From positions 5,394,001 to 5,458,000 of the forward strand of contig OX597832.1 in NCBI GenBank assembly GCA_951406725.2: DNA of 64,000 bases, in the 5' to 3' direction. Of this stretch, positions 250 to 57,431 are shown in pieces; position 1 is the stretch's first letter, and each line of letters opens with the position of its first letter. This DNA comes from Octopus vulgaris. Taxonomy: Eukaryota. Under the pieces are notes generated by a model, which was not told where the DNA came from, searched no databases, and was given only the letters and a program-made list of their open reading frames with translations. The translations under genes and the position numbers were made by a program.

Positions 250-301
250 TAATCTCTGATGATGGTATATCTTTTATATACCTGAAACAGCTGTAAGACT
301 A
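250..301 (+). ncRNA. Minimal type I hammerhead ribozyme motif (PLE pLTR-like)
   Basis: taatct-CTGATGA(256-262)-t-GGTATAT/ctttt/ATATACC-t-GAAA(284-287)-CAGCTG-TA-agacta: intact core, 7-bp stem II, palindromic stem III, GUA cleavage triplet. Confidence 0.8.
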
Positions 302-365
302 CCTTTCTCTTTATAAATGTCCTAGAAATTTCACACTGCCTCAGCTTTGTTGTCTCATTTTATTT

Positions 366-368
<3 letters not shown>

Positions 369-397
<29 letters not shown>

Positions 398-631
398 TGT
401 ATGTATGTATGTATGTATGTATGTATGTATGCATGTATGCGTGTATGTATGTATGCATGTATGCGTGTATGTATGTATATATGTATGTATGCGTGTATGT
501 ATGTATGTATGTATGCGTGTATGTATGTATGTATGTATGTATGTATGTATGTATGTATGTATGTATGTATGTATGTATGTATGTATGTATGTATGTATGT
601 ATGTATGTATGTATGTATGTATGTATGTATG
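369..631. repeat. (TATG)n microsatellite
   Basis: Direct reading; explains the MYVC/HTYI ORFs. Confidence 0.98.
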
Positions 632-665
632 AGCAAAGTAGCTTGATCTAACATCTCTATTAAAG

Positions 666-1180
666 TGTAAGTAGTAACAATATTGAAAATTAAAATTTGT
701 TGTCACTTCAACATAACTGTTCCGTACGGAACGACGTTACTGCCATTTTTTTAATTCCAGCAGGACATCTCCTCCAGATGGTAGTAACGAATTTCTGTAC
801 AGAACAGCCGTGTTGAAGTGACAACAAACATTACTTCTCAGTATTGTTACTACTTGTATCTCTTTTGGAGATTTTAGAACTAGCTACTTTATTGCAAAAT
901 CAGCGATTGAATGTTGTTTGTTTTTCTAAATACTGCGAGCTAGGACGAACAATTGCCATGCCTAGCAGACAGGTTTCCAGTACTGACAAAGGGAATCATC
1001 CTGAAAAAGACCGGTCTACTGGTCTTGTTACCGTTAGATGGTAGGGGTTCGTTTCCCTGCTCGCAATATATCGGACCCACATTGTGTCGTTAGCCAGTTG
1101 GAGATGTCCTCCTGGGGTTAAAAAATGGTAGTAACGTAGTTCCGTACGGAACAGCCATGTTGAAGTGGCAAAAAACATTA
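666..1180 (+). mobile_element. Penelope-like mini-element with tandem and inverted terminal copies
   Basis: 698-772 is the reverse complement of 1100-1175; 778-834 is a direct copy of 1125-1180; hammerhead motif inside. Confidence 0.65.
977..1022 (+). ncRNA. Type I hammerhead ribozyme motif, core mutated (CTGACAA)
   Basis: CCAGTA-CTGACAA-AGGG/aatca/TCCT-GAAA-aagaccg-GTC-TACTGG: perfect 6-bp stem I, palindrome GACCGGTC. Confidence 0.7.
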
Positions 1181-1663
1181 CTTATATATGTTTTAGTGCA
1201 GAATTGTATTTCTGAATTATTAAATATCATTTTTCAGGATTATATTTTCTTCAATGCATTCCGACAGGCTCTTTTCCGAACATCATCAGGAGTCTTTATT
1301 TATTGATAGTTCTAAGGACGCGCTAATATAGTGTTCTGGGATGAAATACTGGCAAGATATATAAACTGTATTAAATTTAGGAAGTTGAAGGTAATCAGAT
1401 AGTAAATGAACGAACTGAAGTGTAAAATTTAGATACGAACAATTAGGCTAATGTTTTCAGGAGGTCAAGTAAATGTCTATCTACATAATGAAGTGGACCG
1501 AGTAATTTAAATTGATTATAATTACATCCATGGGACATATTCATTAGTGTGATGGTCAATTCTGGTCAAGAAAAGCAGGAGAAACAACCCTGATATTTTG
1601 AGTTGATCTGTGAAAATCGTCACTTCAGTGTTTGTAAAATTACCGAATACGTAGGTGTGTGTG

Positions 1664-1878
1664 CAGGGGGATGCTGAAAAGTTCCTAGCTTTAGGTAAAA
1701 GAAAATATAGGAGGATCAGTTAATTATGATTTTATTCAACATATCCTCCTGTCAGATTCACATACTTATTGTAGCAGTCCTTCAGTTTTTTTAAGTCCTG
1801 TAAAAGGACTCGAGAAGGTTGGGCCTCCAACTAGGTCTTTCGTGATACCCTTAAAGCTAAGAATTTTTCAGTACCCTG
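1664..1878. mobile_element. Mariner-like MITE
   Basis: Imperfect TIRs cagggggatgctgaaaagttcctagcttta / taaagctaagaatttttcagtaccctg. Confidence 0.6.
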
Positions 1879-1879
1879 T

Positions 1880-2400
1880 CGTAAAAGTTCGTGCAGCATG
1901 ATTTTAAAATAATTTAAGATGTATTTCGTCGCAAAATGTGTGTCGCATCTGCTGACAGATGAAGAAGAAGAGAGCTGAGTCAGAGTCAGTTGGCAGCTAT
2001 TTGATCACTCGAAAGCTGATACAAAGTCACTGAAAAATATAACAGGGAACGAAATATAAGTGTACGTCTACGATGTCAAAATAAATAAATAAAAAAAATA
2101 ATAAAAACAGCAATTGTCGCAGTGGCTTGCATCACCGTCACTGTGACACACAAATTAGAAAGTGATGCTGACAGTGTGTGTGTATATATTTTTTCGTATT
2201 GGAAGTGACGTTGACAATCACGTTCATTCCACATGTGGTCAGACGATCAATAAAGTGACGCGTTTGAGTTGAGGCAGCACCGGGAAGAAGACTGAGGCAG
2301 AAACAAACACAACCCAGATGATGCACCACGACAGCACAGCACATCTGCTCACACATCACCCACTATCTATGACACTTTGCTAAAGCACAATACTACTCTA
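1880..2400 (+). mobile_element. Decayed mariner transposase relic
   Basis: Translates in pieces to VAKCVSHLLTDEEE..ITGNEI*VYVYD..HHD, matching mariner motifs (xVPxxLT, ITGDExWVY, HHDNA). Confidence 0.65.
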
Positions 2401-2634
2401 CCTTGAGACTGAATTTGGCAAATGGAGTCTGCGAGGAAGCCCTTCTATATGTGTGTGTGTGTGTATCCAAACGAAGCCGCTGGTCAATGACTGAAACAAA
2501 TAAAAGATAAAATAAACACAAATTTAGTCATATTCTTTCTATACTGGAAACATTTTCGTATTGGAATTCGATCTAAATTTTTATTAGTTTTAAGGTGATC
2601 AAACGACTCAAATAGGATCGGATACTCACGTACT

Positions 2635-3332
2635 CATAATCCTTCTATTATAAGCACAAGGCCTGAAATTTTGATGGAGGTGTTAGTCGATTACATCGAC
2701 CCAGTGTTCGACTGGTATTCATTTTATCGATCCCAAAAGGATGAAAGCCAACTCAGAATGTAAAGCCGGAATATCCATGAAGGAAGAGAATGTAAAGCCG
2801 GAATATCTGGAATGAAGAGAATGTTTACAAGACTCATGCACATCACTCGCATTCCTTATTCCAAAGATGAACTCACGTACGATGGAAGTCTTTAAACTTT
2901 TCAAGGAACCTAAAAGGTTGTTTCAAAGCCAGCAATCTTGGTGCATAGTATAAAGCCAGCAATCTTAATATATAGAGCGATCCCAAAAGGATGACAGACA
3001 AAATCGAACTTGGCGGTATTTTAATTCAGAACGTAAAGAGTCGGAAGAAATGCCGCTTAGCATTGCGTCCTACTAACGATTCTGCTAGTTTACCATCTTA
3101 ATAGACCTAAAAATAATGGTTTCAAATATTTTTTACAAGACCAGTAAATTTAGGGGAGGCTTAAGTCAATTACATCAGCCTCGGTGGTCTGTTGGTACTT
3201 CTATCGACTTTAAAAAGGACGATATGCCCAGATGACCTCGGCGGAATTTGAACCTAGAACGTAAAGAGTCAGAAGAAATGCCGCGAAGTATTTTATCCGA
3301 AGAGCTAACGATCCTACCAGCTCGCCACATTA
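2635..3332 (-). mobile_element. Cluster of decayed SINE copies (family A)
   Basis: Repeated ttttatcgaccccgaaaggatgaaaggc / gaatttgaactcagaacgta / aacgattctgccagctcgcc modules. Confidence 0.75.
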
Positions 3333-3752
3333 ATAAACTCCAAAATAACTAAAAAAGAAAAAAAAAACCACATTCATATCACAATTAAGCGTAGAAATTT
3401 ATTTCAGAATAAAAACTGTTAAGTGCTACTCGCTCAATGAATTATGTAACACTCGTTTTCTTTGTACGTGTTAATCATTAAGTTTGTATTTGCAAATAAA
3501 TCACAGTTCTTGCCTCGTATAAATCCTTATGAATGATTTTTTTTGTTACTCTTTTCTAAAGAAAAAAAAACATTTGTTTTTGTTGTCTAGTTTCAGTTAT
3601 AAGACTCATAAACAGATCACGTGGCCTTGCCACCAATTTTAGCTTAAATCACTGATCCTTGATCGTAAATGTTTCATTATTTGGTTAGTCACCAAGTATT
3701 TTGATTTGTTATAATTTTGTGATCGAACTCTATTTATTTATTTATTTATTTA

Positions 3753-4045
3753 CGACCAGGCTATCAGATGTTGCTACACATCGCTGGTCACAATGCGCTT
3801 CGCATTGTATTAGCCTTCAAATGACGCCAACCCGCTGGCTAAGCGAGCAGGCCAACAGAAGAAAGAGTGAGAGAAAGTTGCGGCGAAAGAGTACAGCAGG
3901 GATCGCCACCACCCCCTGCCAGAGCCTCGTGGAGCTTTAGGTGTTTTCGCTCAATAAACACTCACAACGCCCGGTCTGGGAATCGAAACAGCGATCCTAC
4001 GATCGTGAGTAGCTGCCCTAGCCACTGGGCCATTGCGCCTCCACC
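3753..4045 (-). mobile_element. tRNA-derived SINE (family C) with RTE-like 3' tail
   Basis: Minus strand head ggaggcgcaaTGGCCCAGTGG (A box)..GTTTCGATTCC (B box); tail resembles the 3' end of the RTE at 10053. Confidence 0.85.
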
Positions 4046-4379
4046 GAACTCTTTTACGATAGCGAATACAAAGACCGAAATGTGGTTCATCCAAAGGGTC
4101 TCTGATGTAACATTACTCGACAGAGTACGGAGCTCGGGGATCAGGGAATGACGGAATTCTACTTTAAGCACGCCATATAAACTTGTAACGAACTTGGAGT
4201 GAGTGAATATAACTCTCTTGTACTTTCGGGGTACAAGAGGCAATCACTAGCCGTTGCTTTAATAATCCAGAATTCTACTAGTCAGAAACAACAAGACGCA
4301 GACGTAAAATATATATATACTACTTTATTCTCTTTCTTGGTAACAATAACAATAAGTGGTTATCTGATGTCCTTGGTTC

Positions 4380-4790
4380 GGGGCGCGCAAGGCTGAAAGT
4401 TAATCGATTGTAATATTTACAATATTCAGCCGCTAAAACCAGAACGGGTTCAAGATGGCGTCGAACAGGGAAGTTGAATGTGGTCGGCAACAATTTGGTT
4501 AAAAGCTTTCGGCCGACTGCTATCAAAGCTGGACAGCGAGAATACACGTCCGTCTCCTTCGGTCGCAGCTGTCCCAAGTCGCCGCTGCTGCTGGACGCTG
4601 GTGGTCAACGTCTTACGACCCCCTTGCCTCGGCTAACTGCTACGTAGGCAAAAGGGTTCTTCTTCCGGTGCTTCGCGCATGCGCGAGAGGGCCCTTCCTC
4701 TCTCTGCCTGGGTAAAGGCACCAACACGCGCGAAATACAAATGGACGGTGCGCGAGCGCGCGCCGTTATAGGATCACTACAAACTCAACT
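4380..4790. promoter_or_regulatory. CpG-island-like promoter candidate
   Basis: GC/CpG-rich stretch not repeated in the window; YY1-type CAAGATGGCG 4451-4460, ETS-type CTTCCGG 4662-4668, NRF1-type TCGCGCATGCGCGA 4673-4686, ACTACAA 4776-4782. Confidence 0.7.
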
Positions 4791-5432
4791 TTTTTTTTTG
4801 AATATTTTCTGAAAATTTTTTGAATTTATGTTCTACACACGGGAATTCATACGATTATGAAAAAAAAAATTTATTTAGTATTTTCGAAATTAGAATTTTA
4901 AAAAATTTTCGATTTTTTTCAAAATCACAGTTTAAAATAGTCCGAACTTTTGGCCTAAATCCTAGCAATAGACAATTAAATGTGTTTATGGGGATAAAAG
5001 TTTTGAAAAACCTCAATACGTCACAATGACAAACAAATGAGGACAGTATAAGGTGCTCGTGAGACGTGCTAAAAATAACAGCTAAATATCCCTTAACTTA
5101 CACAATATTTTTGGTGGGTTTTTGCATAGTCGTATGAATTCCCGTGTGTAGAACACAAATTCGCAAAAACTTTCTGAAAGTCCCTCCTCCCACAAAAAAA
5201 AAAGCTCTGGGGGATTATATGACCTTGGGTGTAGACCATGAATGAGATGTCTGGATTATATACTTAATCTCATCTGGTCGCACTTGCGAATCCAGCCGGA
5301 AAGTGTGATGACGGTTGCTTCTGATAGGACCTTATGGAGGAGGTGCCCGAGAACTCTGCCCATAAATCTCCTAGGAATAGCGGGTGGAAAAGATGGATGG
5401 ATAATTTTGTGGTTAATAAAAATGAGTTATAA

Positions 5433-5645
5433 CGCGGCGAGCTGGCAGAATCGTTAGCACGCCGGACAAATGCTTAGCGGCATTTTGTCCGTTTTTACGT
5501 CCTGAGTTCAAATTCCACCGAGGTCGAATTTGCCTTTCCCTATTTCAGGGTCGATAAAATAAGTATCAGTTAAGCAATGGGGTGGGTGTAATAGACTTAC
5601 CCCTCCCCCAAAATTGATGGCTTTGTGCCAAAATTTGAAACCAAT
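5433..5645 (+). mobile_element. SINE family A
   Basis: gcgagctggcagaatcgttagcacgcc..gagttcaaattcc..ggtcga..tttgcctttc..ggtcgataaaataagta. Confidence 0.85.
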
Positions 5646-6142
5646 GTAATTTAGTTAGACTGAATTATACTTGCCGTTGTATTTAGTCTTTGGTTGAGGT
5701 TATGAACTGCTTTACATTAAAGATATGAAAGTGTCCTTATCACTATACATACGTTTTAATGGTATATCCGAAGGAAAAAAGGGTTATGATCATGACCCTT
5801 TTTAAGGCTTCTGTGAATGGAAGGAAATAAGTTATCCTCAACCGGGATATCTAGTTTGAATGGTTGCAACAGAATGATCTCTATAAAAGCGTCATTCGAC
5901 CAGGTGGTGGTGCTAAAGTGAAAGGCAGATTAAGTCGGATTAAAGTATTAAATTGATATATTACACGCATAGAAAAAGAAAAATTATTCAGCATTTTTTC
6001 AAATCATAAGCTTTAACGATATGTAGCTCCTGTGTGTGTATGTGTGTATGTGTTGTGTGTTGTGTGCACGTGTATGTATGTATGTATGTATGTATGTATG
6101 TATGTATGTATGTATGTATGTATGTATGTATGTATGTATCTA

Positions 6143-6985
6143 TGTTATTATTCAGTTTATATCAAGGTTTCTTGCCAATGGAGAAACCTAGATTTCTAAC
6201 CTAGATCCAAGGCTTTCTAACCTAGATCCAGTTTCTAACCTCGATCCAAGGCTCCTTCATTGGAATTTCAACATCAGAAACAGGGTATCTTTGTTTGTAT
6301 GTATGCATGTATGTATGTATTATGTATGTGCGAATTTGTATGTCTATGTATTCTCATGCATATAGTTGCATATTTAGACAGGCTCATATATATTTAAATG
6401 ATAAACTTCTGGAAAGTTTTACAGATTTTTACAGTTCCAGTGATGGAATGGATTTGTAGTCTTCGAATTAGCTTTCTCCTTTCTGGTTTTGAGAAGCCTA
6501 ATTTCTCAAGATTGGTATTTAGGCAGTGTATTACATATCCCAGGGCCCCAATAATTACAGGTACAAACCTGAACTTGTAATCTAGATAGAGTAACAGTAG
6601 ATTTCTCAATAGTTTAACATAGGTGTTCTATTTTTTCTGAAAGCTGAATGTCAGCATAAAGCTGATCTTCCGCTTTATGCTAACATCCGCTGGGCAGCAA
6701 ATTTCCACAACTGTGCACAGTTTCTCTTCTCTATCCCAAATCATTATATCGGGTCTGTTATGCTTACATTTTATTGAGGTCTTCACTGGGACATTCCACC
6801 AGTATTCCTTTTTATCATGAGTGGCTATGGCTTCTACCATATTGTGGGTTCTTATTTCTTTGCCTTCGGGATTATCCCTTCGACGGATTTCACTATAGTG
6901 TCTTAGCTACATCATTTCTCATCGGTAGATAAAACCGTGATGACATTTTCGGACAACTGCTGTGAGTGATATCTTTAGTGTGGTA
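6143..6985 (-). mobile_element. 3' fragment of RLE-type non-LTR retrotransposon (R4/Dong-like)
   Basis: ORFs 6628-6840 and 6394-6609: YWWNVPVKT..HNRPDIMIWD..VVEICCP..VPVIIGALG (restriction-like endonuclease); flanked by (TATG)n. Confidence 0.85.
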
Positions 6986-7179
6986 TGTATGTATGCATGT
7001 ATGTACAAATAAAAACAAACAAATGAAAATTAGATATCAGACAGTATAAATTCTTGGTTCTTGATTTATTGAAATTTACTCAGCTTCCAGGGAAGGCAAA
7101 ATATGTTATCGCCTGGCGGCAATTACGATCAGTTCCAAATGAGAAGGGGTGATAATCCCGTGAGTAAAGAATTCTCTAA

Positions 7180-7430
7180 ACTGGTTTCAAATTTTCGCAC
7201 TAGGCCAGCAATGTCGAGAGAAGGCGCAAGTCGAATACATGAACTCCAGTCGCCAACTGATACTTATTTATCAACTCCGAAAGGATGAAAGGCAAAGCCG
7301 GCCTCGGTAGGGTTTGAACGCAGAAAGTAAAGACGAACGAAATGCTGCTAAGTTGAGCACTGGGGTTGATGAAATCGACTAGTCCCCTTCTTCCAAATTT
7401 CAAGCCTTGTGCCTGTAATAGAAAGGATTG

Positions 7431-7472
<42 letters not shown>

Positions 7473-8635
7473 AATATTATTTCAATTTTTAGACCAGGTG
7501 ATATGCTGTGTCCTTGAGCAAAACACTTCGCCTCACGTTGCTTTGCGATCACTTCGACACCTGACGCGTAGTGCACAGTGATCTTGTTCTGACAACGTCG
7601 GGATGGGTAGAAAGTGAGCTAATGTGCAGCACGAACATTTGATCACTATAAACAAATCATTTGTGCAAGTCGTTCAGCAAAAGCTGAACGCTCATGCGCC
7701 GTCTTCTCTATCATTATTATTATAAAGCAACAAGCTAGCATACGTCGGATAAAATGCATAGCGGTATTTCTTCCGGCTGGTGGTGAGCTGGCAGAAAAGT
7801 TAGCACGCCGGGCGAAATGCCTAGCGGTATTTCGTCTGCCGTTACGTTCTGAATTCAAATTCCGCCGAGGTCGACTTTGCCTTTCATCCTTTCGGGGTCG
7901 ATAAATTAAGTACAAGTTACGCACTGGGGTCGATATAATCGACTTAATCCGTTTGTCTGTCCTTGTTTGTCCCCTCTGTGTTTAGCCTCTTGTGGGTAGT
8001 AAAGAAATAGGTATTTCTTCCGGCTTTATGTTCTGAGTTCAAATTCTTCCGAGGCGGACTTCACTTTTTATTCTCTCGGGGTCCATAAAATAAGTACCAA
8101 ATGAGAACTAGTGTCGATGTAATCGACTAGTCTCTTCCCACAAAAATCGCTGGCCTAGTGCTAAAATTTGGGACCATAAAGCGATGAGTTGGCAGAATCG
8201 TTAACGAGCCGAACAAAACGCTCAGCGGCATTTATTCAGGCTTTACGTTTTGAATTTAAATTTTGCCCTAATCGACTTTGCTTTCATCCTTTCGCGGTCT
8301 ATGAAATAAACACCAGCTAAGTACCGGATTCCTACCTCATATTTCAGGCCTAATGTTTATAGTAGAAAGGATTAGAAGACGATTCACACGATGTAATTAT
8401 TCGTTTAGTATCAAGGCTGCGAGGTGGCACAGTCGTTAGCACTTCGGGGAAAATGCTTAGCGGCATTTCATCCGTCTTTGTGCTCTCTGAGTTCAAATTC
8501 CGCCGAGGTCGACTTTACCTTTCGAGGTCGATAAAATAAAAACCAGTTGAACACTAGGGTCGATGTAATGGACTCACCCCCGCCCTCACCAAAAAAAAAA
8601 AAATTTACTCGCCTTGTACCAAAATTTGAAATCAA
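7180..8635 (+). mobile_element. Dense array of SINE family A copies and fragments (best copy about 7780-8010)
   Basis: At least six recurrences of the family A head and central module; the first copy is on the minus strand. Confidence 0.85.
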
Positions 8636-9298
8636 TATGGTATTTTATAAAAACATTTTTCATATTCATGGATTTTTTTTTTTACATTGATGACCGAAAT
8701 GAAAATAACGTAAAAAGTTTAGTTTATTTATTTATTTATTCATTTATTCGAACTTATCTTTTTACAAGAAATGCGTATTTGAGTGTCGGTGAGGGCATTA
8801 GAAACTAAAAATTTTCAAATCAAACTAAGCTTGTTTTTCTTTCAGTTCTAGTTTTTTCCCCAACCATAACATTTACTGACAGTCTGTGCTAATATTTACG
8901 TAATGATTAATATATATTTATTTATTCAATCCCATATGTAACGGTAAACTAATTTTCAGTTCACCTGTCCAGCTGACAATTTTCTCATATGACATAAAAC
9001 CGAAATACACATACAGGCGTCTATGTATATATGTGTGATAAAAACCTTGCTTCCCAGTCACATAGCTCCGGGTTCAGTCCCACTGCGTGTCATCTTCGGC
9101 AAGTGTCATCTACTCATAGCACCAGGCCAACCAAAGCCTTGTGAATGGATTTGGTAGAAGGAAACTGAAAGAAGCTTACTGTATATCTATCTATCTATAC
9201 ATATGTATATATGCATACATATATACATATACATACATATATACATAAATACATACATACAGACACACACACATGCACGTACACACGCACACACGCAC

Positions 9299-9335
<37 letters not shown>

Positions 9336-9373
9336 ACTTTAGGAATGGGAACCCAGGTTCGAAATTTCTCCAA

Positions 9374-9419
9374 GACACCTGATAAAGGCTGGAGGGTATA
9401 TCAGCCGAAACGTTGTGTT
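9374..9419 (+). ncRNA. Ultra-minimal hammerhead motif, core mutated (CTGATAA)
   Basis: GACAC-CTGATAA-a-GGCTG/gagggtatat/CAGCC-GAAA-CG-TT-GTGTT; stem III is only the palindrome AACGTT. Confidence 0.7.
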
Positions 9420-9533
9420 AGCAACAAACAAGACGAGGACAAATATCCGTCAAATGTAAATAATTTAAATAATGTGTGTATGTATATATATATATATATA
9501 TACGATAAAAACCGCGGTAGTTGAGTTTAACCC

Positions 9534-9586
9534 TCGACTGATGGGGATTAAGATAGTCTAAATGAAAATCCGAAATCACGATCCGG
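9534..9586 (+). ncRNA. Degenerate hammerhead motif
   Basis: tcga-CTGATGG-GGATT/17 nt/AATCC-GAAA-TCACGA-TC-cgg, in a ~230-bp element between (TA)n tracts. Confidence 0.55.
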
Positions 9587-9981
9587 CTATGTACGCTGGG
9601 GACTTACCTTCCTTTGCCAGTCACTTAAGACAGTGCGTTTGTGACTTTGAATTAGTTTAACTCTTATCTTCAGCAAAAGCGGTGCTAGTCAGTACCGTCT
9701 GACACTTTTGTGACCTCTATTAAAATTGACTTTATATATATATAACAGAGGTAGAAACTGATCAATCCATGATGTATCGTTAATGGTAAATGTTTTTGAT
9801 TTTCACTCTCGATGAATTTATCTTTTTTTTGTGTCCCTAGCACTTGGCATCCTTATTTAGGAGCCCTTAATTATATTTCTATATGAATAATATTTTTCTA
9901 TATGAATGATATTTTGTCTAATGACTAATTCGTCTTTTGTGCTGGGCCACTGGTAGTAATCTATGTTATTACCCTTTTTTG

Positions 9982-10048
<67 letters not shown>

Positions 10049-10052
10049 GTAT

Positions 10053-11334
10053 ATCACTTTGATCACTTTGACCGACCAGTCCGTCAGGCGTCCAGTTGAC
10101 ACCGCTGGTCACAGCACGCTGTCCACTCCTCTCTGGATCACGCCTTTCTCATCCACGTAGATCCCAATCGTCCTCTTGAAATCGTCTCTCCACCGTCGTG
10201 GAGGTCTTCCGGTGGTCTTTCGCTCACGCGGTACCACTCGACAACTGCGTGCGTCCACCGATTATCGGTGAGCCGGGCGACGTGTCCAGCCCATCTATAC
10301 TTGCTGCGAGTATACTCTGCGATGACATCTCTCACGCCAGACTTCTTTCTGATGATGTTGCTATTTATGTGCTCTCTCAACGAGATACCAAGCATTGACC
10401 TTTCCATGGCTCTTTGAGCCGTTATCTCTTTGCTCTTCTTCTGTGGTAGCCCATGTTTCACTACCATATAACATTGCAGGCAGAACTGCACTGTTAATGA
10501 GGTTGGCGCGGGTGGTCCTGTCCAACCTTCCCTTGAGCACATCCCTTATGCCATTGAACGCCTTCCATCCGGCCCTTACTCTCCGTGAGATCTCCTTTTT
10601 GATATCCCGGCACATATTTACTTCCTGTCCCAGGTAGACATATTCTCTCACCTCCTCTCTATTTCATCACTGCCGATCACCATTCGACCTGTTGGTACGT
10701 TGTCTGACCGCATGAACTTTGTTTTCATGCGGTTCATCTTGAGACCTACTGCAGAACTTTTGATGTCGAGCTCCGTTAGCATGGTCTGAAGCTGATCCAT
10801 GTTTTCAGCGATGAGTACGATGTCGTCAGCGAAACGAAGGTGAGTGAGGAGCTCGCCATTGATGTTGACACCACCTTGCCATTCGATGCCTCTGATGATC
10901 TGTTCGAGACATGCAGTGAAAAGTTTTGGGGAGATTGTATCTCCCTTCTCGACCGGCACTCGTATGGGTGATGACAGTAGAGCTATGTCGGTGGTGCATC
11001 CGGAATTTGCCTCTCTGAGCAGCTGCACATATTGCGCTTCGATTCCTTGCCTCTGCAGCGAGTTCAGCACTGCGTTGGTTTCGACGCTATCGAAGGCCTT
11101 CTCATAATCTATAAACGCAACGCAAATAGGCAGCTTGTACTCATTTGCTCGTTCAAGCAGTTGCGTTAGAGCAAATATATGGTCCATTGTGCTGTAGTTC
11201 TTCCGGAAGTCTGCTTGCTCCCTCGGTTGTTGTTCGTCGAGACGACGTGACAACCTGTTCAGAATTATCTTCGTGAACAGCTTGTACACGTGAGACAGCA
11301 GGCATATGGGTCGGTAGTTCTTTAGATCTTCTCT
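10053..11334 (-). mobile_element. 5'-truncated RTE-clade LINE (reverse transcriptase and C-terminus, frameshifted)
   Basis: NYRPICLLSHVYKLFTK..FIDYEKAFDSV..GDTISPKLF..LRFADDIVLIA; YVYLGQ; RWAGHVAR; tail next to (TA)n. Confidence 0.95.
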
Positions 11335-11636
11335 AATACAAAATGGGACAAGAACGCAAAACATCCGGACAGTTAGGTGATACAAAAATGAGACAACAAA
11401 TCATCCAGACAGACGATACAAAGAAAACAAGGACGGGTCATTCGAAGTTTTCTTTCCTCAGTCAAATACCAGATTATCCTCGCAATTTCGGTTGATTATA
11501 CTTGAGATTACTCCAATCTGGCCAGCCCCAAGGAAAAACTAAGCTACGAGCCTTAGGTTCCTTAGAAGAAAACAGTGAATGTATACAAAAACAAGGACGG
11601 AAAAAAAAAACGGACAAGGTTACACAAATACAAACC
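11335..11636 (-). mobile_element. PLE pLTR-like repeat (same family as 22196-22940)
   Basis: Homologous to 22196-22470; carries CTGAGGA..GAAT..GTC motif on minus strand. Confidence 0.55.
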
Positions 11637-12061
11637 TGTTATCTTTTACTTGTTTCGTTCATTAGACTGCAGTCATGCTGGGGCATCACCGTGAAGAATG
11701 TTTTACCCGGGCGAATGAACTCCAGAAACGGCCGTTGAAATATTTTCTTTTAATGTGTAACCCGAAACCTTATTTTGATGCCTATTAATATCTCTTCACT
11801 ACATTTTCAATTAAAAAAAAAAACGTTTTTATCTATATTCCAATACTTCATTATATTATTACTATGTTTATACACTCATATATTTATATGTATATATATA
11901 TTTTTATATTTTTAAGATATTAATATATGCTTTATTTTGGGCAATTTTTATCTTAAATCCGTACACATATGTGTTTATCGCAGTTTGCCTAACTGGAACT
12001 TTTTCATTTATTATACCGGAAGTGCGGTCAATGTGTTGCGTAAGAAAAATATAACTACACA

Positions 12062-12107
<46 letters not shown>

Positions 12108-12465
12108 TACACACACACACACAGATATATTTATGGCACTCCGTCGGTTACGACGACAAGGGTCCCACTTAATCCGATCAACGGAACAGCTTGCTCGTGA
12201 AATTAACGTGCCAGTGGATGAGCACTCCACAGACACATGTACCCTTAACGTAGTTCTCAGGGAGATTCAGTGTGACACAGAGTGTGACAAAGCTGGCTCT
12301 TTGAAATACAGGTACAACTAAAACAGGAAGAAAGAGTGAGAGAAAGTTGTGGGGAAAGAGTACAGTAGGGTTCGCCAACACACTTACATATATACAATAG
12401 TGATGTCGGATCCATCCATCCATCCATCCATCCATCCATCCATCCATCCATCCATCCATCCATCC

Positions 12466-12546
<81 letters not shown>

Positions 12547-14149: not shown

Positions 14150-14496
14150 AAATCGGCGCTGTGTGGTAAGAAGCTTGCTTTTCAATGATGTAGTTCCGGA
14201 TTCACTACTGCGCGTCACCTTCGGTGTCTCCTGTTATAGCTTCGAGTCAATCAAAGCCTTGTTAGTGGATTTGGTAGAAGGAAACTGAAAGAAACCCGTC
14301 TTATATTTACAAAACACACACACACACACACACGCACACACACACACACGCACACATGCATGTGTGTATGTGTGTGCGTGTGCATCCTTGTGTTTGTTCC
14401 ACACTACCAATTGACAACTGGTGTTGGTGTGTTTACGTCCCTGTTACTTAGTGGTTCGGCAAAAGAGACCGATAGAATAGGTACCAGGCTTACGAA
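14150..14496 (+). mobile_element. SINE family B (diverged)
   Basis: gctgtgtggtaag..caaagccttg..gtggatttggtaga.ggaaactgaaaga..(CA)n..gagaccgatagaata. Confidence 0.8.
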
Positions 14497-14528
14497 ACGA
14501 CATGAACATGGCAACGTTTATACATACA

Positions 14529-14922
14529 CTAGCAGTATCGCCCGGCGTTGCTCGGGTTGTAAGGGAAATAACTATATAAGCATTTTTAGAGAGTTATAGC
14601 CAAAAAATAGCAAAAAAATGCATTAAAAATTGAAAGAAATTAAGGTAATTTTTTTTTTAAATCGTTGACACATCGTAGATATTTTTAGAGAGTTACTTCC
14701 CTTATATAAAAGCGAAAAAAATGCATTAAAATGGAAAAATATGATGGTAAATTTTTTAAAAATCGTAGACTCATCGTAGACGCGCGCTAATACCCAGAAG
14801 GGCTCGATATGAATCACGACTATAAGATACCCGCTTTTGGTTAAACTGCACCGCAAAATGTGGGAGTAGTTACGAATCTAAATCGTAGGAGACAGACACA
14901 CAACTTCACTCTTATATAAAGA
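14529..14922 (-). mobile_element. Non-autonomous Helitron
   Basis: Minus strand starts TC (14922) and ends CCCGAGCAACGCCGGG hairpin + CTAG (14529); inserted between A and T. Confidence 0.85.
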
Positions 14923-21920: not shown

Positions 21921-22031
21921 CTGGTATCTTACTGTATTGCATCTATTATATTTTTGATCTTCTATATAAATGTAGATATATCCTTTGTTTGGCTGCTTTT
22001 CTTTACACGAAGTGAGTAGATACATTGCGGA

Positions 22032-22131
22032 ACCCGAAGAGACACATCAACATCAACGGATGTTCCTAAACCAGTTGTTAAGTATCCCACCCATGAGGGA
22101 TCGATGCTAGATGTGTCGAAGTAATTGTCGT
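22032..22131 (+). ncRNA. Degenerate hammerhead motif with long stem II
   Basis: ac-CCGAAGA-GACACATC...GATGTGTC-GAAG-TAATTG-TC-gt; three substitutions from CTGAAGA/GAAA/CAATTG. Confidence 0.55.
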
Positions 22132-33689: not shown

Positions 33690-33947
33690 TACATTCTTTT
33701 ATTCTTTTACTTATTTCAGTCATTTGATTGTGGCCATGCTAGAGCATTACCTTAGAGGGTGTTAGTCGAAGAAATCGACTCCAGGACTTATTCTTTGTAA
33801 GCCCAGTACACACACACACACATATATACGACGGGTTTCTTTCAGTTTTCGTCTACTAAATCTACTCACAAGGATTTCGTTGGCCCGACGCTATAATAGA
33901 AGATACATGCCTAAGGTGCCACGTAGTGGGCCTGAACTCGGAACCAT
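33690..33947 (-). mobile_element. SINE family B, head truncated at a (TA)n/PLE insertion
   Basis: Family motifs; stops at ggaaccat. Confidence 0.85.
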
Positions 33948-34153
33948 ATATATATATATATATATATTTATTATATAGAAGGAGCTTCTACAGGACTAGA
34001 ACTGTTTCATTCAAGAGAAATCTTCCTGAAGATTTCTCTTGAATGAAACAGTTCTAGTCCTGTAGAAGCTCCTTCTATATAATAAATTAATTTTACTCTG
34101 CTATGTATTGAGTACCTTATTTACTGTGGTTAACCCCGAATCAACCCGGGACC

Positions 34154-34216
<63 letters not shown>

Positions 34217-34316
34217 TTCCGAGTTCAGGCCCACTACGTGGCACCTTAGGCATGTATCTTCTATTATAGCGTCGGGCCAACGAAATCCTTGTGAGTAGAT
34301 TTAGTAGACGAAAACT
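33844..34316. repeat. Nested perfect inverted repeats (104-bp outer arms, 60-bp inner arms)
   Basis: 33844-33947 = rc(34213-34316); 33966-34025 = rc(34028-34087). Confidence 0.95.
34026..34063 (+). ncRNA. Hammerhead motif lacking the 5' strand of stem I
   Basis: CTGAAGA-tTTC/tctt/GAAt-GAAA-Cagttcta-GTC-ctgt, beginning exactly at the palindrome centre. Confidence 0.7.
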
Positions 34317-44760: not shown

Positions 44761-46109
44761 TATTTACTCGTCCGTCTAAACGAAGACGGGAACACGTGGG
44801 GGGGGGGGGAACTAATTGCAGGTGGTGAGCGTTGTTGCATCCGGAAGTGGTCACGCGGTCAAACTCAAATGGTTGTGAGTCACAACTGCAGTTTGTTTTC
44901 TTGTATGAACATTTTGCATAGTTTAGACATGGATGACACAGAAAGCAGACATGCTGCGTTGCGCAGGATTGGAAACGTGAAACATCAACAGAGCACTTCT
45001 GGAGAATGGATGAATGGATTTGTTGTGCCTTTACCCAGTCGCACACACACGCGCATGGCCCGGTGGTGCGCGGGATGATAACATGAAGCATCAACAGGGC
45101 GCCGACAAAAATTTTAATGCTCTCATTTCCTCTGCCAAATTGGACAAAAAGGCTTTCATGAAATATTATTCGCTACTTATAATGCATAAGTAGTGTCAAT
45201 ATTTTATCATCGGAAAATGGCCTAAAGCAAAAATAAAACCCAGTGCTGTATACTCAAATCTGATTAATCTGCATTTTTGTGGGGCCAGAAATTTTTCTAG
45301 TCAACAGAAATTCGAGGAGCTTGATTAATGTTTGTTGTAAATTTGAAGGAAAGCAACTGGATACTCTTCAAATCGCGGGCCTTAACGCTGCGAAAATGCT
45401 TTCATAATGTGGTTTATCTGCCCCTGGGCCCGCATTAAGCAAAAAGTTGAAATTTGTTTTTGTGCATGACACTCCATGGACCCTATGTAATGCATGTGTA
45501 AAATTTCATTAAAATCGGTTAGGTGGATCTCGATTTTTAACGACATGACAAACACAGACAGACACATCCTGTGTCTTATATATATAGAGTATGCACCTTG
45601 TTGGAAAAAATTGGAAATGTGAAAGGAAAATGAGTCTAAGTGACTATTTGTGAAAAAGAAAGAAAGAAAGAAAAATATATCTTCGTATTTTATCAAAGCA
45701 AATAAACTGATGTATTGGTTTGTTTTTGCATAAAGAGTTCATATGAAGTGGAATAAGTTAGTTTAGGACAGTATCAGATACTTAGTATTGTAAACATACT
45801 GGCGTAGAAATAGATTAATAATGAATAAAAGATAAAGTGGAAGAATATAAAAGTGAAAGTGTTTAGCAAACAAACTGGAAATACGCGCAACAACTTTAAA
45901 TGTAGCTTCAAAACAAATAGATGTCATCCTAATCTTTAATCAAAACCAACCTCACGTAATTAATTCACTATATTATCTTTTTGAAGTTTTTGAAGAAGTA
46001 GCACCTTAAGTGAAAGTGGAGGCGCGTGGCTTAGTGGTTAGAGTGTTGGACTCATGGTTGTAAGACTGTGGTTTCTCAGCTGACAAAAATGTGTAATCCT
46101 GCGACGGAC

Positions 46110-46649
46110 GTTGCTAGAAGTGCAGGTGAAGGAGTTAGTTATATGATAGGGACAATGATGGGTGGCTGTGAGGATGGTGGTGTTGGAGAGGTAGGGGCAA
46201 GTGCGGCAGCGTCGGCGGAAACAGGAGAACGAGCTGGATTGGGAGGTAGGGTTAGGGAAGAAACTGTGGACCAGGAGGTCACATAGGTTGTGGGCTCGTT
46301 TGAAGGGGGGAAGGGGTAGGTTGGGGAAGATGTGCGAAGTGGAGGTGTCGGACTGGAGTCGCCGGAAGGCTCGGAGACGTAGGATGGAGGGGTGGTAGGT
46401 GAGGGGAAACGGGAGAGGGTAACGACGAGGCGGGTGCGGGGCGAGAGAGCAGATGCACGGTCCACGGAACGTGATCTGGCAAGGGCGGTGTGGATAGTGG
46501 TGAGGGGATATCCACGAAGGATGAAGTGGTGAGCCATGTGTTGAGACTGAGTTTCAAAGTCATGGTTGTCATTACAGAGCCTGGGCAGACGGAGGAATTG
46601 GGAGTAGGGGATGGAGAGTTTGGTGTGTTTGGGGTGGGAGGGGGAGAAG

Positions 46650-46655
<6 letters not shown>
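46110..46655 (-). mobile_element. Penelope-like ORF fragment (RT thumb, linker, start of GIY-YIG region)
   Basis: SHPKHTKLSIPYSQFLRLPRLC..FILRGYP..PLTYHP..FKRAHNLCDLLVHS..CFRRRCRTCP..FTCTSSNV; abuts (TA)n. Confidence 0.9.
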
Positions 46656-46878: not shown

Positions 46879-46979
46879 AACTACGTACGTTTCATGGCTA
46901 TAATTAAATTCGAATTACAATTATATTTAAATTTAATCGAAAAACAATTCAATTTGAAATTATAGTCACTCTTCAGGTT
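46879..46979 (-). ncRNA. Type I hammerhead ribozyme with extended stem II
   Basis: AAC-CTGAAGA-GTGACTATAATT...AATTATAGCCAT-GAAA-CGTACG-TA-GTT; intact core, palindromic stem III. Confidence 0.85.
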
Positions 46980-47010
46980 AACATTAATAACAATATTAGT
47001 TAAATAAATC

Positions 47011-47270
47011 AATTGCAGCGTGGAAGGTGTTTATAAGCCATTTAAGAAACACACAAAAACCGTTAGATTCACTTCAACATTTATATTTAATTTGTCAAAA
47101 ATAAATATAAATATAAATATAAATGTTGAAGTGAATCTAACGGTTTTTGTGTGTTTCTTAAATGGCTTAAAAACACCTTCCACGCTGCAATTGTTTTCGT
47201 TCTAGCACACGATCTCAGATCAAGTCACTCGCTGTGCAAGTACATCTCCGTAAAGTTAAATAAATAATAT
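47011..47270. mobile_element. Asymmetric fold-back mini-element (PLE-like)
   Basis: 47011-47078 = rc(about 47115-47191), near-identical; right arm continues ~75 bp to a TA run. Confidence 0.7.
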
Positions 47271-49185: not shown

Positions 49186-49714
49186 AGAAGAATATTGCAA
49201 ATAGTCGTTAGGCCGAATAAAAATCTGTTGTACGCAATTGTAGCAATATTAAATTGAAATAATAATCTATGTATCACACTTAATGTACTACAGTGTTGAC
49301 AGGTAAGCAGCTACTGCTTCAATTGCATACAAGAAATATTTAAATATTTATTTCACCCAACGGCTATTCACAGTGTCAATGCACATGTTATTCATTGTTT
49401 CTTATGTATCAGAAATGACAAATTTCATTTAGGCATGTGGCTACAAGTACACGTCATTAATAAGCCCTAAGAAAACCGAAGTGCAACAGATATTCTCGCT
49501 AGCCGCTGCCTGGATAATTTTTCGTCTCCCTTCGATATGTCATGCGTTTTTAGCATAGCCCCACTATAAGAGACGTTTAACTTGAACGAAAACTACAGTA
49601 TGAGACTAACTGAAGAAGGCAACCGGATGGAAACTTCTAAGTTACCATTACACTTCTCAGTATAAATACAGATTTCATCTCTAACAGAAATTTTCTTAAC
49701 GTACTGATTTGCTA

Positions 49715-54239: not shown

Positions 54240-55480
54240 TTTCATCTCTCGCTAGCTTTTGCTGGTCTTCCTCTTCTTTGTTCACCATGATAAGTTTGTC
54301 ACAGAAGAATTTAACCTCTAGCTCCTCCTTGTTATACTAGCTGAGCAGTGACAGTATGAAAGCTTGTGCTTCCATATTGTCTCTGTAAGATGTAGAATAT
54401 CTTGGTGAGATATTTAGACGTAGAGCCTTCTGGTGTATGTGCGTGTGTGTGTGTGTGCGCGCGCGCCATTCAGCGCTTTCTTCAACGGAGCTGTAAGTGT
54501 CCCTATTATCGAATCATGAACGAAAATTGATTCAACTTCGGCTCTGAAGAAGTTTATTTGATTTTCAGCTCCATCTTGGTTCTGTTTTAACAGTGTTGAC
54601 ATATATAGTTTGATTTCCTGGACATTTTCTTCCCCAGAGCGTGCTGGAGGATATTGGCACCTTTTATACGGATCATTCTTTATTGCCAAATCTGCATCTG
54701 TAATTTTCTAGGCGGAGTATCTGTTACTCCTTTTCTGAAAAAGAGTCAAACCTACGTAGTTTTTTGAGTGAAGTACTTTCCTTAGTACATAGTCGAGGTA
54801 TAATGATAAAAAGGTGCGGTACAAGGGTATTGCCGTGTAACAATCTGGCAGTAATCTGAAAAGAGTTTGTGTCTTCGTCACCAGAATGAATTTTAGCTCT
54901 AGTGTTTTGACTCAACTTCATTATAACATTCATTGATTCTGCAGGAATGACATAAGCTAACAACATCTCTTCTTTTTTCTTTCAAGAATCGAATCGAAGT
55001 CTTTTCTGAAAGCTATGAAAGGTAGAACAGCTGGTATATTCTTCTCCTCCACACATTCAGGGATTCGGCTGATTGTAAGTATTTGTCTTATTGTTCATCT
55101 ATTTGGACGAAAGATTTTCTGATTCTTGTAAAAAATTTTCTCAAGCTTCCGCCTAATTCTTTTTACTTGATCAAGCTGTAGATCTTAGCTGTAATTGCAT
55201 TGTGAGTAATATCACGGTAATTTTTAGAAAAAACCAAATCTCCTTTCTTGGGTACTGGAATTATATAATCCTCTCTCCAGCTATATAATGCCCTTTGCTG
55301 GTATACAACACTGTAGGCCTCTAGGACATTGTTAAATTCTTCCGGTTTCCAGACATCTACAGGGATGCCTTACAACCCTTTTGTGTTATCTTCCTGGATT
55401 GATTTGAGGACATCTTGCAGTTCATCGATGGTAAAGAACACTTCTTTATGTCGAGTTCTTCTGGGAAGAACCTAGTTTGA
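54240..55480 (-). mobile_element. Decayed RTE-like LINE RT fragment
   Basis: MLLAYVIP..NTRAKIHSGDEDTNSFQITARLLHGNTLVPHLFII resembles the GVLQGDTLAPFLFII region; IIPVPKKGDL upstream. Confidence 0.8.
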
Positions 55481-56294
55481 CTATAAAGGCAAAATTTGCT
55501 GTATACAAAGCTGTTCTGGTGACTGCATCATTTTATGGTAGTGAAGCGTCGACAGTTTACCAATGATACGCAAAAATATTCAATCACTTTCACCTAACAT
55601 ATCTGCAATAAATTCTCAACACCAAGTGGCATGTTAAAATTCCTAATACTATTGTTTTCGAGAGAGCTAATATATTAAGCATGTATATATTTTAAAGTAA
55701 ATCGCAACTGCAGTGGAGGGGATCGTAGTACGCATGCCCAACTCCAGACACTCAAGAATCCTACTGTGGCCTGGATTCTGCCATTATGTTCCCCTACTAT
55801 AATCATGGATTTTATTTCAACATTGCCTTGATACGTCACCTCAGTAAACACAAAGAGCAAAGCTACTAATCTGATCATATTCAGAGAGATGAATGACGAA
55901 CGTCACGAAAATCAAGCTGAAATATTCCACATCATTGTAGAGATATTAGGACAATCCCCTTTGACATATATTATTCCGTCCAACGGTATTTATTGAATAT
56001 AATCAGTAAGTGCGAAACCGACGTCATTCACTTATCAAGGCTTCTCGTTGCTATTAGATATCAGTGGTGTCCTTCAACTCAAATAGTGGTAGAGATCAGT
56101 GACATTTCGATCGTCATTCACAAACTAAAAGTACTTAACAGGACAAAATACGCATGCCAGCAGAGTTCATCTTTTGTCCATCAAACCGAGTGACTTATAA
56201 CTGCTTTCATGTTACAAACAAATAGCTAAGAAACTTAAGGGTTAGCATTAGCCACACGGCCCACATTAATTATCATGCCAAATCATCAGAGTTA

Positions 56295-56877
56295 ATGTAT
56301 GTATGTATGTATGTATGTATGTATGTATGTATGTATGTATGTATGTATGTATGTATGTATGTACGTACGTACGTACGTACGTATGTATGTATGTATGTAT
56401 GTATGTATGTATGTATGTATGTATGTACGTACTTACGTATGTATGTATGTATGTATGTATGTATGTTTGTATGTTTGTATGTATGTACGTACGTACGTAC
56501 GTATGCATGTATGTACGTATGTTTGTATGTATTTACGTACGTACGTACGTATGTATGTATGTACGTACGAATGTGTGTATGTATGTATGTATGTATGTAT
56601 GTATGTATGTATGTATGTATGTATGTATGTATGTATGTATGTATGTATGTATGTACTTACGTACGTACGTATGTATGTATGTATGTATGTATGTATGTAT
56701 GTATGTATGTATGTATGTATGTATGCATGTATATATGTATGTTTGTATGTATGTACATACGTACATACGTATGCATGTATGTATGTTTGTATGTACGTAC
56801 GTACGTACGTACGTACGTATGTATGTATGTATGTATGTATGTATGTATGTATGTATGTACGTACTTACGTACGTACG

Positions 56878-56911
<34 letters not shown>

Positions 56912-56967
56912 TGTATGTATGTATGTATGTATGTATGTATGTATGTACGTTCTTACGTACGTACGTA

Positions 56968-57003
<36 letters not shown>

Positions 57004-57060
57004 TGTATGTATGTATGTATGTATGTATGTATGTATGCGCGCGTGTGTGTATGTATGTAT
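56295..57060. repeat. Long (TATG)n/(TACG)n compound microsatellite
   Basis: Direct reading. Confidence 0.97.
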
Positions 57061-57203
57061 TACATATGCATGTGTGTATGTGTACATATAAATAGGCAGA
57101 ACTATCTGGTTAAGAAGTTTGCTTTGCAATCTTGAGCGAGTATCTTCTACTATAGCTCCAGGCTGGCAAACACCTTGTGAATGGATTTGGTAGACGGGAA
57201 CAG

Positions 57204-57269
<66 letters not shown>

Positions 57270-57370
57270 CTGTGTGTGTATAATAATATGACAACAAAAG
57301 AATGAATGATACCTCGATATTATGTAAATAGAGGAATTTTTCTATAATATATGTGAGAGTCGGTTGCCAT

Positions 57371-57431
57371 AATAAAACTCAGAGTTTCCGATGCCGGGGT
57401 AGAAGTCTGGTCCGGCATCTCATCAGTTATT
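57371..57431 (-). ncRNA. Type I hammerhead ribozyme motif
   Basis: AATAA-CTGATGA-GATGCCGG/13 nt/CCGGCATC-g-GAAA-CTCTGAG-TT-TTATT; 5-bp stem I, 8-bp stem II. Confidence 0.8.

What the first reader, a model, noticed from the sequence alone, without database searches (positions are those of the whole stretch)
250..57431. Archipelago of unrelated minimal hammerhead ribozymes in microsatellite-embedded mini-elements
Seen: eight motifs with hammerhead order (stem I - CUGANGA - stem II - GAAA - stem III - UH - stem I) at 250+, 977+, 9374+, 9534+, 22032+, 34026+, 46879- and 57371-. Their stems share no sequence, most have a palindromic or near-palindromic stem III, and most lie in short non-coding elements beside (TA)n. 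Established: Penelope-like element pLTRs carry minimal type I hammerheads with palindromic stem III, proposed to cleave as dimers. Inference: this genome hosts many independent TA-targeted PLE or retrozyme-like families, possibly a very large uncatalogued ribozyme repertoire.
Basis: partly seen in the sequence, partly recalled or inferred. Interest (0 to 1): 0.8.

Follow-up and report, generated by a model that had tools for sequence, protein, structure and literature searches.

The report
Octopus Penelope-element hammerhead ribozyme remnants
Six or seven of the eight motifs are likely decaying copies of the small self-cutting RNA motif that Penelope-like jumping genes carry near their ends, in what is likely octopus DNA, where such elements and their taste for TA repeats are already described, so this is a real but largely known kind of sequence whose cutting was not tested.

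Summary
Mostly real, largely known. All eight motifs are at the stated places. Four keep the whole hammerhead core (256+, 34026+, 46976-, 57426-), and the best four hits exceed every one of 100 shuffles. Two broken copies are rescued by their families: in public runs the majority letter restores the core at 9379+ (97-99%) and at 9538+ (86-96% in three runs, 42% in a thin fourth), plus a 4-bp helix and the palindrome. 983+ is borderline; 22034+ is at chance level. The eight share no sequence. The DNA is likely Octopus. A Neptune/Nematis-type Penelope-like (PLE) fragment lies beside 46976-, and two full-length relatives carry the same hammerhead design 3' of their ORF. Best reading: dead, 5'-truncated PLE ends. 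No retrozyme tandems were seen. Print already gives minimal PLE hammerheads in molluscs, TA-targeted Octopus PLEs and 190 PLE families in O. vulgaris; this scan also reported the same thing on other DNA. What remains new is an octopus catalogue and one family of roughly 100,000 copies. No window motif was tied to its own ORF; cleavage is untested.

The parts
253..298 (+). Minimal type I hammerhead motif, core intact; stem I 3 bp, stem II 7 bp with one unpaired U on each side, perfect 8-nt palindrome for stem III; predicted cut after 295
   Evidence: 0 of 60 shuffles; family not sampled
977..1022 (+). Probable decayed hammerhead: A at core position 8 (could be a CpG change), stem I 6 bp, stem II 3-4 bp, palindrome shifted by extra A's; lies inside a fold-back repeat at about 635-1183
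   Evidence: 6 of 60 shuffles as good; family not sampled
9374..9419 (+). Minimal hammerhead, this copy mutated at core position 8 (9384); family majority is canonical; best fit to the published PLE consensus (bulged A, G-C first pair, 6-nt palindrome); predicted cut after 9414
9335..9474 (+). Short, very high-copy repeat that carries the 9379 hammerhead, between (CA)n and (TA)n; roughly 1e5 copies by depth ratio
9534..9588 (+). Decayed hammerhead copy (G at core position 9, stem I lost, palindrome broken); family majority letters restore the core, a 4-bp inner part of helix II and the palindrome
22031..22079 (+). Hammerhead-like string with two core changes; not distinguishable from chance
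   Evidence: 56 of 60 shuffles as good; family not sampled
34022..34068 (+). Hammerhead motif, core intact; stem II only 3 bp, stem III 4 bp with 8-nt loop, stem I 4 bp whose 5' strand lies at the apex of an inverted duplication
   Evidence: 1 of 60
33844..34316 (.). Nested inverted duplication around the 34026 motif: inner 49-bp arms (98%), (TA)n on both sides, a 71-nt tail on the right arm only, outer 102-bp arms of a flanking repeat 100% identical
46879..46979 (-). Minimal hammerhead, core intact; stem I 3 bp, stem II about 11 bp with a long AT-rich loop, perfect 8-nt palindrome; predicted cut after 46882
46107..46654 (-). Frameshifted fragment of a PLE ORF: RT thumb region, C-x4-CxxC linker and start of the GIY-YIG domain (Neptune/Nematis type); begins at a (TA)n tract about 230 nt 3' of the 46976 motif
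57370..57432 (-). Best-scoring minimal hammerhead, core intact; stem I 6 bp, stem II 8 bp, one extra G before GAAA, near-palindromic 4-bp stem III; starts about 20 nt from (TA)n; predicted cut after 57376

Best explanation
The motifs are likely the minimal type I hammerhead ribozymes of the 3' terminal repeats (pLTRs) of several unrelated Penelope-like retroelement families, left behind as short, likely 5'-truncated and decaying insertions at microsatellites in what is likely an Octopus genome. Inferred mechanism: the element's GIY-YIG endonuclease nicks at or near (TA)n, its reverse transcriptase copies the RNA from the 3' end and usually stops after 100-400 nt, so most insertions hold only the tail and the hammerhead about 50-150 nt inside it. 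In a parental tandem transcript two hammerheads would pair through their palindromic stem III and cut after the N-U-H triplet, releasing unit RNA (proposed in PMC4209133, weakly active in vitro there). Lone genomic copies have no partner in cis and decay by CpG-type change. Shown here: the motifs, their excess over shuffles, the intact family majority for 2 families, the PLE fragment, and hammerheads 3' of the ORF in its relatives. Inferred: PLE origin of each window motif, targeting, truncation, dimer cleavage.
For: Excess over shuffles for 256, 9379, 34026, 46976, 57426. Changes among copies are dominated by C>T and G>A (table 1). The 9379 motif fits the published consensus and has the same design as the motifs 3' of the ORF in L005 and L006, full-length relatives of the window's PLE fragment. 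The inverted, one-tailed layout at 34026 resembles the published PLE insertion layout. Octopus: an RTE fragment of the window is 95% identical over 44% of its length to an O. sinensis protein and a piece of the PLE fragment matches an O. bimaculoides protein. Octopus PLEs with (TA)n preference and 6.83% PLE coverage are in print.
Against: No window motif is joined to the end of its own ORF; the 46976 motif is separated from the PLE fragment by a microsatellite and that fragment starts mid-gene, so they may be two insertions. Only 2 of 8 families were sampled. No compensatory base change within a family appeared in the 40 rows shown of 74. Only 9379 fits the published helix II junction exactly; 256, 34026 and 57426 have an extra unpaired base before GAAA. 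An intact-core hit at 10892+ lies antisense inside an RTE reading frame and is probably chance, so single hits can mislead. Of 8 PLE loci fetched, 3 end inside the ORF and 1 within 100 nt of it; of the other 4, two give clear minimal hammerheads and two give a core with unclear stem III. Minimum-energy folds of single copies do not give the active three-way form for most sites.
Confidence: 0.85

Rival explanations
1. Some families, the 9379 family above all, are discrete non-autonomous SINE-like elements of fixed length (about 150 nt) derived from pLTRs and moved in trans by PLE enzymes, not random truncations. Compatible with the best explanation as to origin.
For: Roughly 0.9-1.6 x 1e5 copies by depth ratio; held by runs of five coded organisms at half or more of the sampled words; loose ends before 9339 give a similar short 5' extension ending in an AAT/AAC- or A-rich tract in 4 of 4 runs (table 7); O. 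vulgaris has 1279 unclassified SINE and 1102 unknown families.
Against: The shared 5' edge rests on 28, 38, 15 and 4 contigs out of 2270-15854 laid per run, agreement 0.59-0.88; the tool warns that depth is no copy number; no promoter or partner element was identified.
Confidence: 0.3
2. The motifs belong to non-LTR retrozymes that are transcribed from tandem arrays, self-cleave and circulate as circular RNAs.
For: Retrozymes occur in molluscs (PMC7229834) and are argued to derive from pLTRs, with solo monomers (bioRxiv 10.64898/2026.07.22.740005).
Against: No tandem unit with a hammerhead among 106 tandem-repeat rows; no second copy in the window; no unit-length head-to-tail joint among the 15 joints shown of 50, though letters at the 3' microsatellite were skipped; the motifs are minimal, not the canonical tertiary-stabilised form that paper describes for retrozymes.
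Confidence: 0.07
3. The motifs are chance matches in AT-rich, hairpin-rich repeat DNA.
For: True in likelihood for 22034 (56 of 60 shuffles) and possible for 983 (6 of 60); lax descriptors give nearly as many hits in shuffles as in the window (38 against 30.7); no Rfam hammerhead model matches.
Against: Top four hits beyond all 100 shuffles; family majorities move towards the canonical core and structure at every majority change inside the two motifs sampled.
Confidence: 0.04
4. The motifs are kept by the host to cut or regulate transcripts.
For: Very high copy number makes read-through transcription of some copies likely (inference).
Against: 4 of 8 window copies have broken cores; family change is CpG-type decay; minimal hammerheads showed no detectable cleavage as monomers and low cleavage as dimers in PMC4209133.
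Confidence: 0.04

Closest known systems
Minimal hammerheads (min-HHR) of metazoan Penelope-like elements, Cervera and de la Pena 2014, PMC4209133
   Same: Type I order, short stem I, longer stem II, palindromic or absent stem III, many sequence-unrelated families per genome, mostly single copies attributed to truncated PLEs; mollusc examples (Lottia, Crassostrea) in its supplement.
   Different: Octopus not listed in the supplement file searched; one family here appears about ten times more numerous than the whole-genome counts given there (2,000-9,000); three motifs have an extra unpaired base before GAAA and two have long loop II inserts.
Octopus PLEs of Craig et al. 2021, PMC8557442 (Naiad_Obim, Naiad_Ovul, Naiad_Omin, Hydra-1_Obim)
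   Same: Same genus as inferred here, (TA)n insertion preference, 5' truncation, inverted copies with a one-sided tail; Hydra said to carry canonical hammerheads throughout.
   Different: Naiads lack canonical hammerheads; the ORF fragment here has C-terminal endonuclease with a CxxxxCxxC linker (Neptune/Nematis type). Sequences were not compared with those consensus elements.
Non-LTR retrozymes (PMC7229834; bioRxiv 10.64898/2026.07.22.740005)
   Same: Non-coding, type I hammerhead, PLE-related, found in molluscs.
   Different: Defined by tandem units of 150-450 bp and abundant circular RNA; no tandem unit seen here.
Schistosoma hammerhead-bearing SINE-like elements (as summarised in PMC6765202)
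   Same: Short, high-copy, non-coding repeats with a hammerhead.
   Different: Those have a promoter head before the ribozyme; none was looked for or seen here.

Membership tests
PLE minimal hammerhead (Cervera and de la Pena 2014) | Intact catalytic core CUGANGA / GAAA / UH | tested here: met
   4 of 8 window copies intact; 2 more intact in the family majority; 983 and 22034 not intact and not sampled
PLE minimal hammerhead (Cervera and de la Pena 2014) | Helix I about 3-6 bp and helix II about 4-8 bp or more | tested here: met
   256, 9379, 46976, 57426 meet both; 983 and 34026 have short helix II; 9538 copy lacks helix I
PLE minimal hammerhead (Cervera and de la Pena 2014) | Short palindromic helix III / loop 3 | tested here: met
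   Perfect in 256, 9379, 46976; near in 57426; restored by majority in 9538; not met in 34026, 983, 22034
PLE minimal hammerhead (Cervera and de la Pena 2014) | Bulged base after position 9 and G10.1-C11.1 pair directly before GAAA | tested here: inconclusive
   Exact in 1 of 8 (9379); the others deviate by a base at the helix II junction
PLE minimal hammerhead (Cervera and de la Pena 2014) | Multi-copy families with compensatory stem changes | tested here: inconclusive
   Multi-copy shown for 2 of 8 families; no compensatory pair in the 40 of 74 rows shown
PLE minimal hammerhead (Cervera and de la Pena 2014) | Lies in the terminal repeat of a PLE ORF | tested here: inconclusive
   Not shown for any window motif; shown for relatives L005 and L006 of the window's PLE fragment
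PLE minimal hammerhead (Cervera and de la Pena 2014) | Self-cleavage as a dimer | not testable with these tools
   Only folding energies were computed
Non-LTR retrozyme | Tandem units of 150-450 bp each with a hammerhead | tested here: not met
   no unit-length joint in the rows shown. Window only, genome not held
Non-LTR retrozyme | Abundant circular RNA | not testable with these tools
   Only contigs were available
Neptune/Nematis-type EN+ PLE (ORF fragment 46107-46654) | PLE RT thumb followed by C-terminal GIY-YIG region | tested here: met
   tblastn of L005 ORF E 6e-21, residues 640-833; P0001 E 2e-12; the GIY-YIG itself is cut off by another repeat
Neptune/Nematis-type EN+ PLE (ORF fragment 46107-46654) | CX2-5CxxC linker between RT and endonuclease | tested here: met
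   C-x4-CxxC in the window fragment and in L001, L005, L006; definition from PMC8557442
Neptune/Nematis-type EN+ PLE (ORF fragment 46107-46654) | RT phylogeny places it in a named clade | not tested
   No named reference RTs were at hand and the RT core is missing from the fragment
Rfam hammerhead families | Match at gathering score | tested here: not met
   0 matches in the window; no hammerhead model at E<=10 around 3 of 8 sites tried

The most novel reading that the evidence does not exclude
The 9379 family is a discrete, about 150-nt, hammerhead-bearing non-autonomous PLE (a 'ribozyme SINE') with about 100,000 copies shared by several octopus species and filed so far under unclassified SINEs or unknown repeats; its copies, transcribed inside host introns, pair in trans through the palindrome and cut host RNA.
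Probability: 0.15. Interest if true: 0.6.

Novelty: new member of a known kind. Interest (0 to 1): 0.2.

Why it matters
As it stands it adds octopus examples to a known class and offers a practical handle: a minimal-hammerhead descriptor could assign part of the octopus 'unclassified SINE' and 'unknown' repeats to Penelope-like families, since Rfam models miss these motifs. The roughly 100,000-copy family would be a good natural test set for two open questions, whether PLE hammerheads cut in vivo and whether PLEs mobilise short non-autonomous partners. It does not point to a new ribozyme class or a new mechanism.

Tried and rejected
Whole genome: not held, so no genome-wide scan or family alignment. 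Rfam: one search was swamped by microsatellite matches (150 of 326 rows shown, no hammerhead among them); gathering scan 0; three local scans no hammerhead. Pattern of the 9379 motif in metagenome and viral contigs: 0 and 0. Pfam on the two PLE frames and on P0001: no family; identity rests on homology and motifs. Expression: no RNA holder listed; run X15 is only guessed to be RNA, so its contigs say nothing on transcription. Single-copy and dimer folds neither support nor exclude the active form, except that the 256 dimer pairs through its 8-nt palindrome. In one search the first table row (outer helix II of 9538) was off by one base; the fold line of the same call gives the right register (9545-9549 with 9567-9571). 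My note that L006 has a hammerhead in both terminal repeats was wrong: L005 and L006 have a 55-nt end overlap, so it is one motif read twice. Treating the 46976 motif as the pLTR of the neighbouring ORF fragment was rejected as unproven. 10892+ was rejected as a likely chance hit inside an RTE frame. Earlier notes on this genome or on the 9379 sequence: none. Lunse et al. on dimer cleavage (PMC5785218) is not held; only its title was seen.
Full report
OBSERVATION. The window is repeat-rich animal DNA (106 tandem-repeat rows). All eight motifs are present. Counting from the first C of the core: 256+, 34026+, 46976- and 57426- keep CUGANGA, GAAA and UH; 983+ and 9379+ have A at position 8; 9538+ has G at position 9 and no stem I; 22034+ has two core changes. 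Three descriptor scans against local dinucleotide shuffles that keep microsatellites in place gave: strict, 3 hits against 0 in 20 of 20 shuffles; lax, 6 against a mean of 3.0 in 8; scored, 4 hits at >=10 (57426, 46976, 256, 9379) against mean 0.22 and maximum 1 in 100 shuffles, with all hits 38 against 30.7 (34026 and 22034 fell outside that descriptor); per site, shuffles with an equal or better hit out of 60: 256 0, 9379 0, 57426 0, 34026 1, 983 6, 9538 58, 22034 56 (46976 outside its loop limit). The descriptors were written after seeing the motifs, so the figures are a little generous. The neighbourhoods are unrelated (0 of 28 pairs above the shuffled maximum) and single in the window. 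Five of eight lie within 150 nt of (TA)5 or longer against 16% of random positions; 256 and 983 do not.

FAMILY EVIDENCE. No genome is held, so I used the one read-laying run on 9335-9740, which covers 2 of the 8 motifs. The stretch 9335-9470 is held at half or more of 8 sampled words by 20 runs of five coded organisms; one run may be the window's source. Laid at 80% likeness, 4 runs gave 2,270-15,854 contigs each. At 9384 the other letter G makes up 0.97, 0.98, 0.99 and 0.99 of depth, which restores the canonical core of 9379. At 9544 A makes up 0.86, 0.96, 0.92 and 0.42 (the last at depth 13), which restores the core of 9538. Majority letters at 9555, 9561 and 9564 add a 4-bp inner helix to stem II (fold energy -2.8 to -9.8 kcal/mol; 9561 not seen in the thin run) and 9578 (0.66-0.78) completes the stem III palindrome. 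Loose ends before 9538 in 9 contigs of one run suggest that the family also has a stem I that the window copy lost. So a copy that was at chance level by itself belongs to a well-formed family, which cautions against dismissing 983 and 22034. The commonest changes are C>T and G>A (table 1), as expected of CpG decay in dead copies; no compensatory pair was visible in the 40 of 74 rows shown. Depth over the 9379 element divided by single-contig depth gives about 89,000, 155,000 and 129,000 in three runs; the tool states that depth is no copy number, so read this as an order of magnitude. The 9538 family is some hundreds of times thinner at this likeness.

HOST AND PARENT ELEMENTS. An RTE reverse-transcriptase fragment at 10648-11400 is 95% identical over 44% of its length to an Octopus sinensis protein; better-scoring hits are longer matches at 53-81% to other or unnamed animals. 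A piece of the ORF at 46107-46654 matches an O. bimaculoides protein. The DNA is therefore likely Octopus. That ORF fragment aligns with the RT thumb, the C-x4-CxxC linker and the start of the GIY-YIG domain of PLE proteins, the Neptune/Nematis layout as defined in PMC8557442. It starts mid-gene at a (TA)n tract about 230 nt 3' of the 46976 motif and is cut at its other end by another repeat, so the motif cannot be shown to be its terminal repeat. Eight relatives were fetched from metagenome contigs. Four have enough 3' sequence: L005 has a minimal hammerhead 175 nt after the stop with the same design as 9379; L006 has one with the U3-A8 core variant (read by eye at the contig end, not scored); L001 and L003 have an intact core and 5-bp stem II about 270 nt after the stop with an unclear stem III. 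The 34026 motif sits at the apex of an inverted duplication with a tail on one arm, like the published PLE insertion layout, but the 100% identical outer arms of flanking DNA are unexplained and may be an assembly fold-back.

MECHANISM. Most likely (0.85) these are 3' ends of many PLE families, inserted at microsatellites by target-primed reverse transcription and truncated soon after the hammerhead. In the parent's tandem transcript two motifs would pair through the palindrome and cut after N-U-H. Shown: motifs, excess over chance, intact majority in two families, PLE fragment, motifs 3' of relatives' ORFs. Inferred: parentage of each motif, targeting, truncation, dimer cleavage. With PLEs at 6.83% of O. 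vulgaris a 64-kb window would hold about 4 kb of PLE DNA, so several such ends per window is what one expects. Rivals: fixed-length non-autonomous derivatives (0.3, overlapping with the main reading), retrozymes (0.07), chance (0.04 for the set; likely for 22034), host function (0.04).

WHAT IS KNOWN, AND WHAT I SAW. PMC4209133: parts 1-2 of 4 of the text and passages of supplement file 2 (file 1 could not be searched). It describes min-hammerheads in PLE repeats, thousands per genome in heterogeneous families, mostly single and attributed to truncated PLEs, no monomer cleavage and low dimer cleavage, with Lottia and Crassostrea examples. PMC8557442: passages, section 6 and supplement rows: three Octopus Naiads and Hydra-1_Obim, all with (TA)n preference; hammerheads said to be universal in Hydra. 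PMC13282606: part 1 of 3, term search and its supplement: 190 PLE families, no mention of ribozymes. PMC8967140, PMC7229834, PMC6765202: passages. bioRxiv 10.64898/2026.07.22.740005: part 1 of 5 and passages; no octopus in the text, supplements not seen, and its four invertebrate species are listed there. Lunse et al. on dimer cleavage: title only. Searches for octopus or cephalopod with hammerhead or ribozyme listed no paper devoted to an octopus hammerhead catalogue; subscription papers and repeat databases were not searchable, so the families may be annotated there. Earlier notes of this scan reached the same reading in other genomes; they are not independent evidence.

VERDICT. Observation partly confirmed: five motifs stand on their own, one more on its family, one borderline, one at chance level. 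New members of a known kind; interest 0.2. The boldest reading not excluded is a discrete hammerhead-bearing SINE-like PLE of about 100,000 copies that cuts host RNA in trans (probability 0.15, interest 0.6).

Noticed in passing
window 33844-34316: Nested inverted duplication with its apex in the hammerhead core; outer 102-bp arms of a flanking repeat are 100% identical and only one arm has the 71-nt tail. Fold-back during insertion or assembly artefact.
   Followed up: partly
window 25624-25692: Two CTGAAGA cores head to head on opposite strands right after (TA)n, each followed by a short hairpin but no intact GAAA box; likely a decayed inverted pair of PLE ends.
   Followed up: partly
window 21313-21552 and 38092-38327 (- strand): Two-copy repeat with CTGA(A/T)GA plus a hairpin but no GAAA after it, and GAAA boxes 20-45 nt upstream; could be a half core of the kind noted for cephalopod Naiads in PMC8557442's supplement, or a permuted motif.
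   Followed up: no
window 11335-11607, 22179-22444, 22712-22948: Three-copy repeat with a hairpin, a GAAA-like box and a 6-nt palindrome, followed 25 nt later by CTGAGGA; two of the copies form an inverted pair. Possibly an older hammerhead derivative.
   Followed up: no
window 49603-49650 (+): Intact core boxes with a near-palindromic 4-bp stem III but no stem I or II; possible ninth, decayed motif.
   Followed up: no
window 10892-10930 (+): Intact-core descriptor hit antisense inside the RTE reading frame; likely chance.
   Followed up: partly
L006 14-58 and 3242-3283: Unit-length Neptune/Nematis-type PLE contig whose hammerhead has the U3-A8 core variant described for Schistosoma Cercyon elements.
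   Followed up: partly
window 635-1183 and 47006-47197: Old fold-back (palindromic) repeats of 190-260 bp, one enclosing the 983 motif's neighbourhood and one just 5' of the 46976 motif.
   Followed up: no
window 10138-11400 (-), 63081-63597 (-), 30634-31089 (+): Broken RTE-type LINE reverse transcriptase (Pfam RVT_1) and mariner-like transposase remnants (HTH_48 hit for 63175-63597; 30634-31089 by eye only).
   Followed up: partly
window, many places (e.g. 23117-23776, 29880-30264): About a dozen copies of two short interspersed repeats, often as inverted pairs around (TA)n tracts, giving long imperfect hairpins.
   Followed up: no
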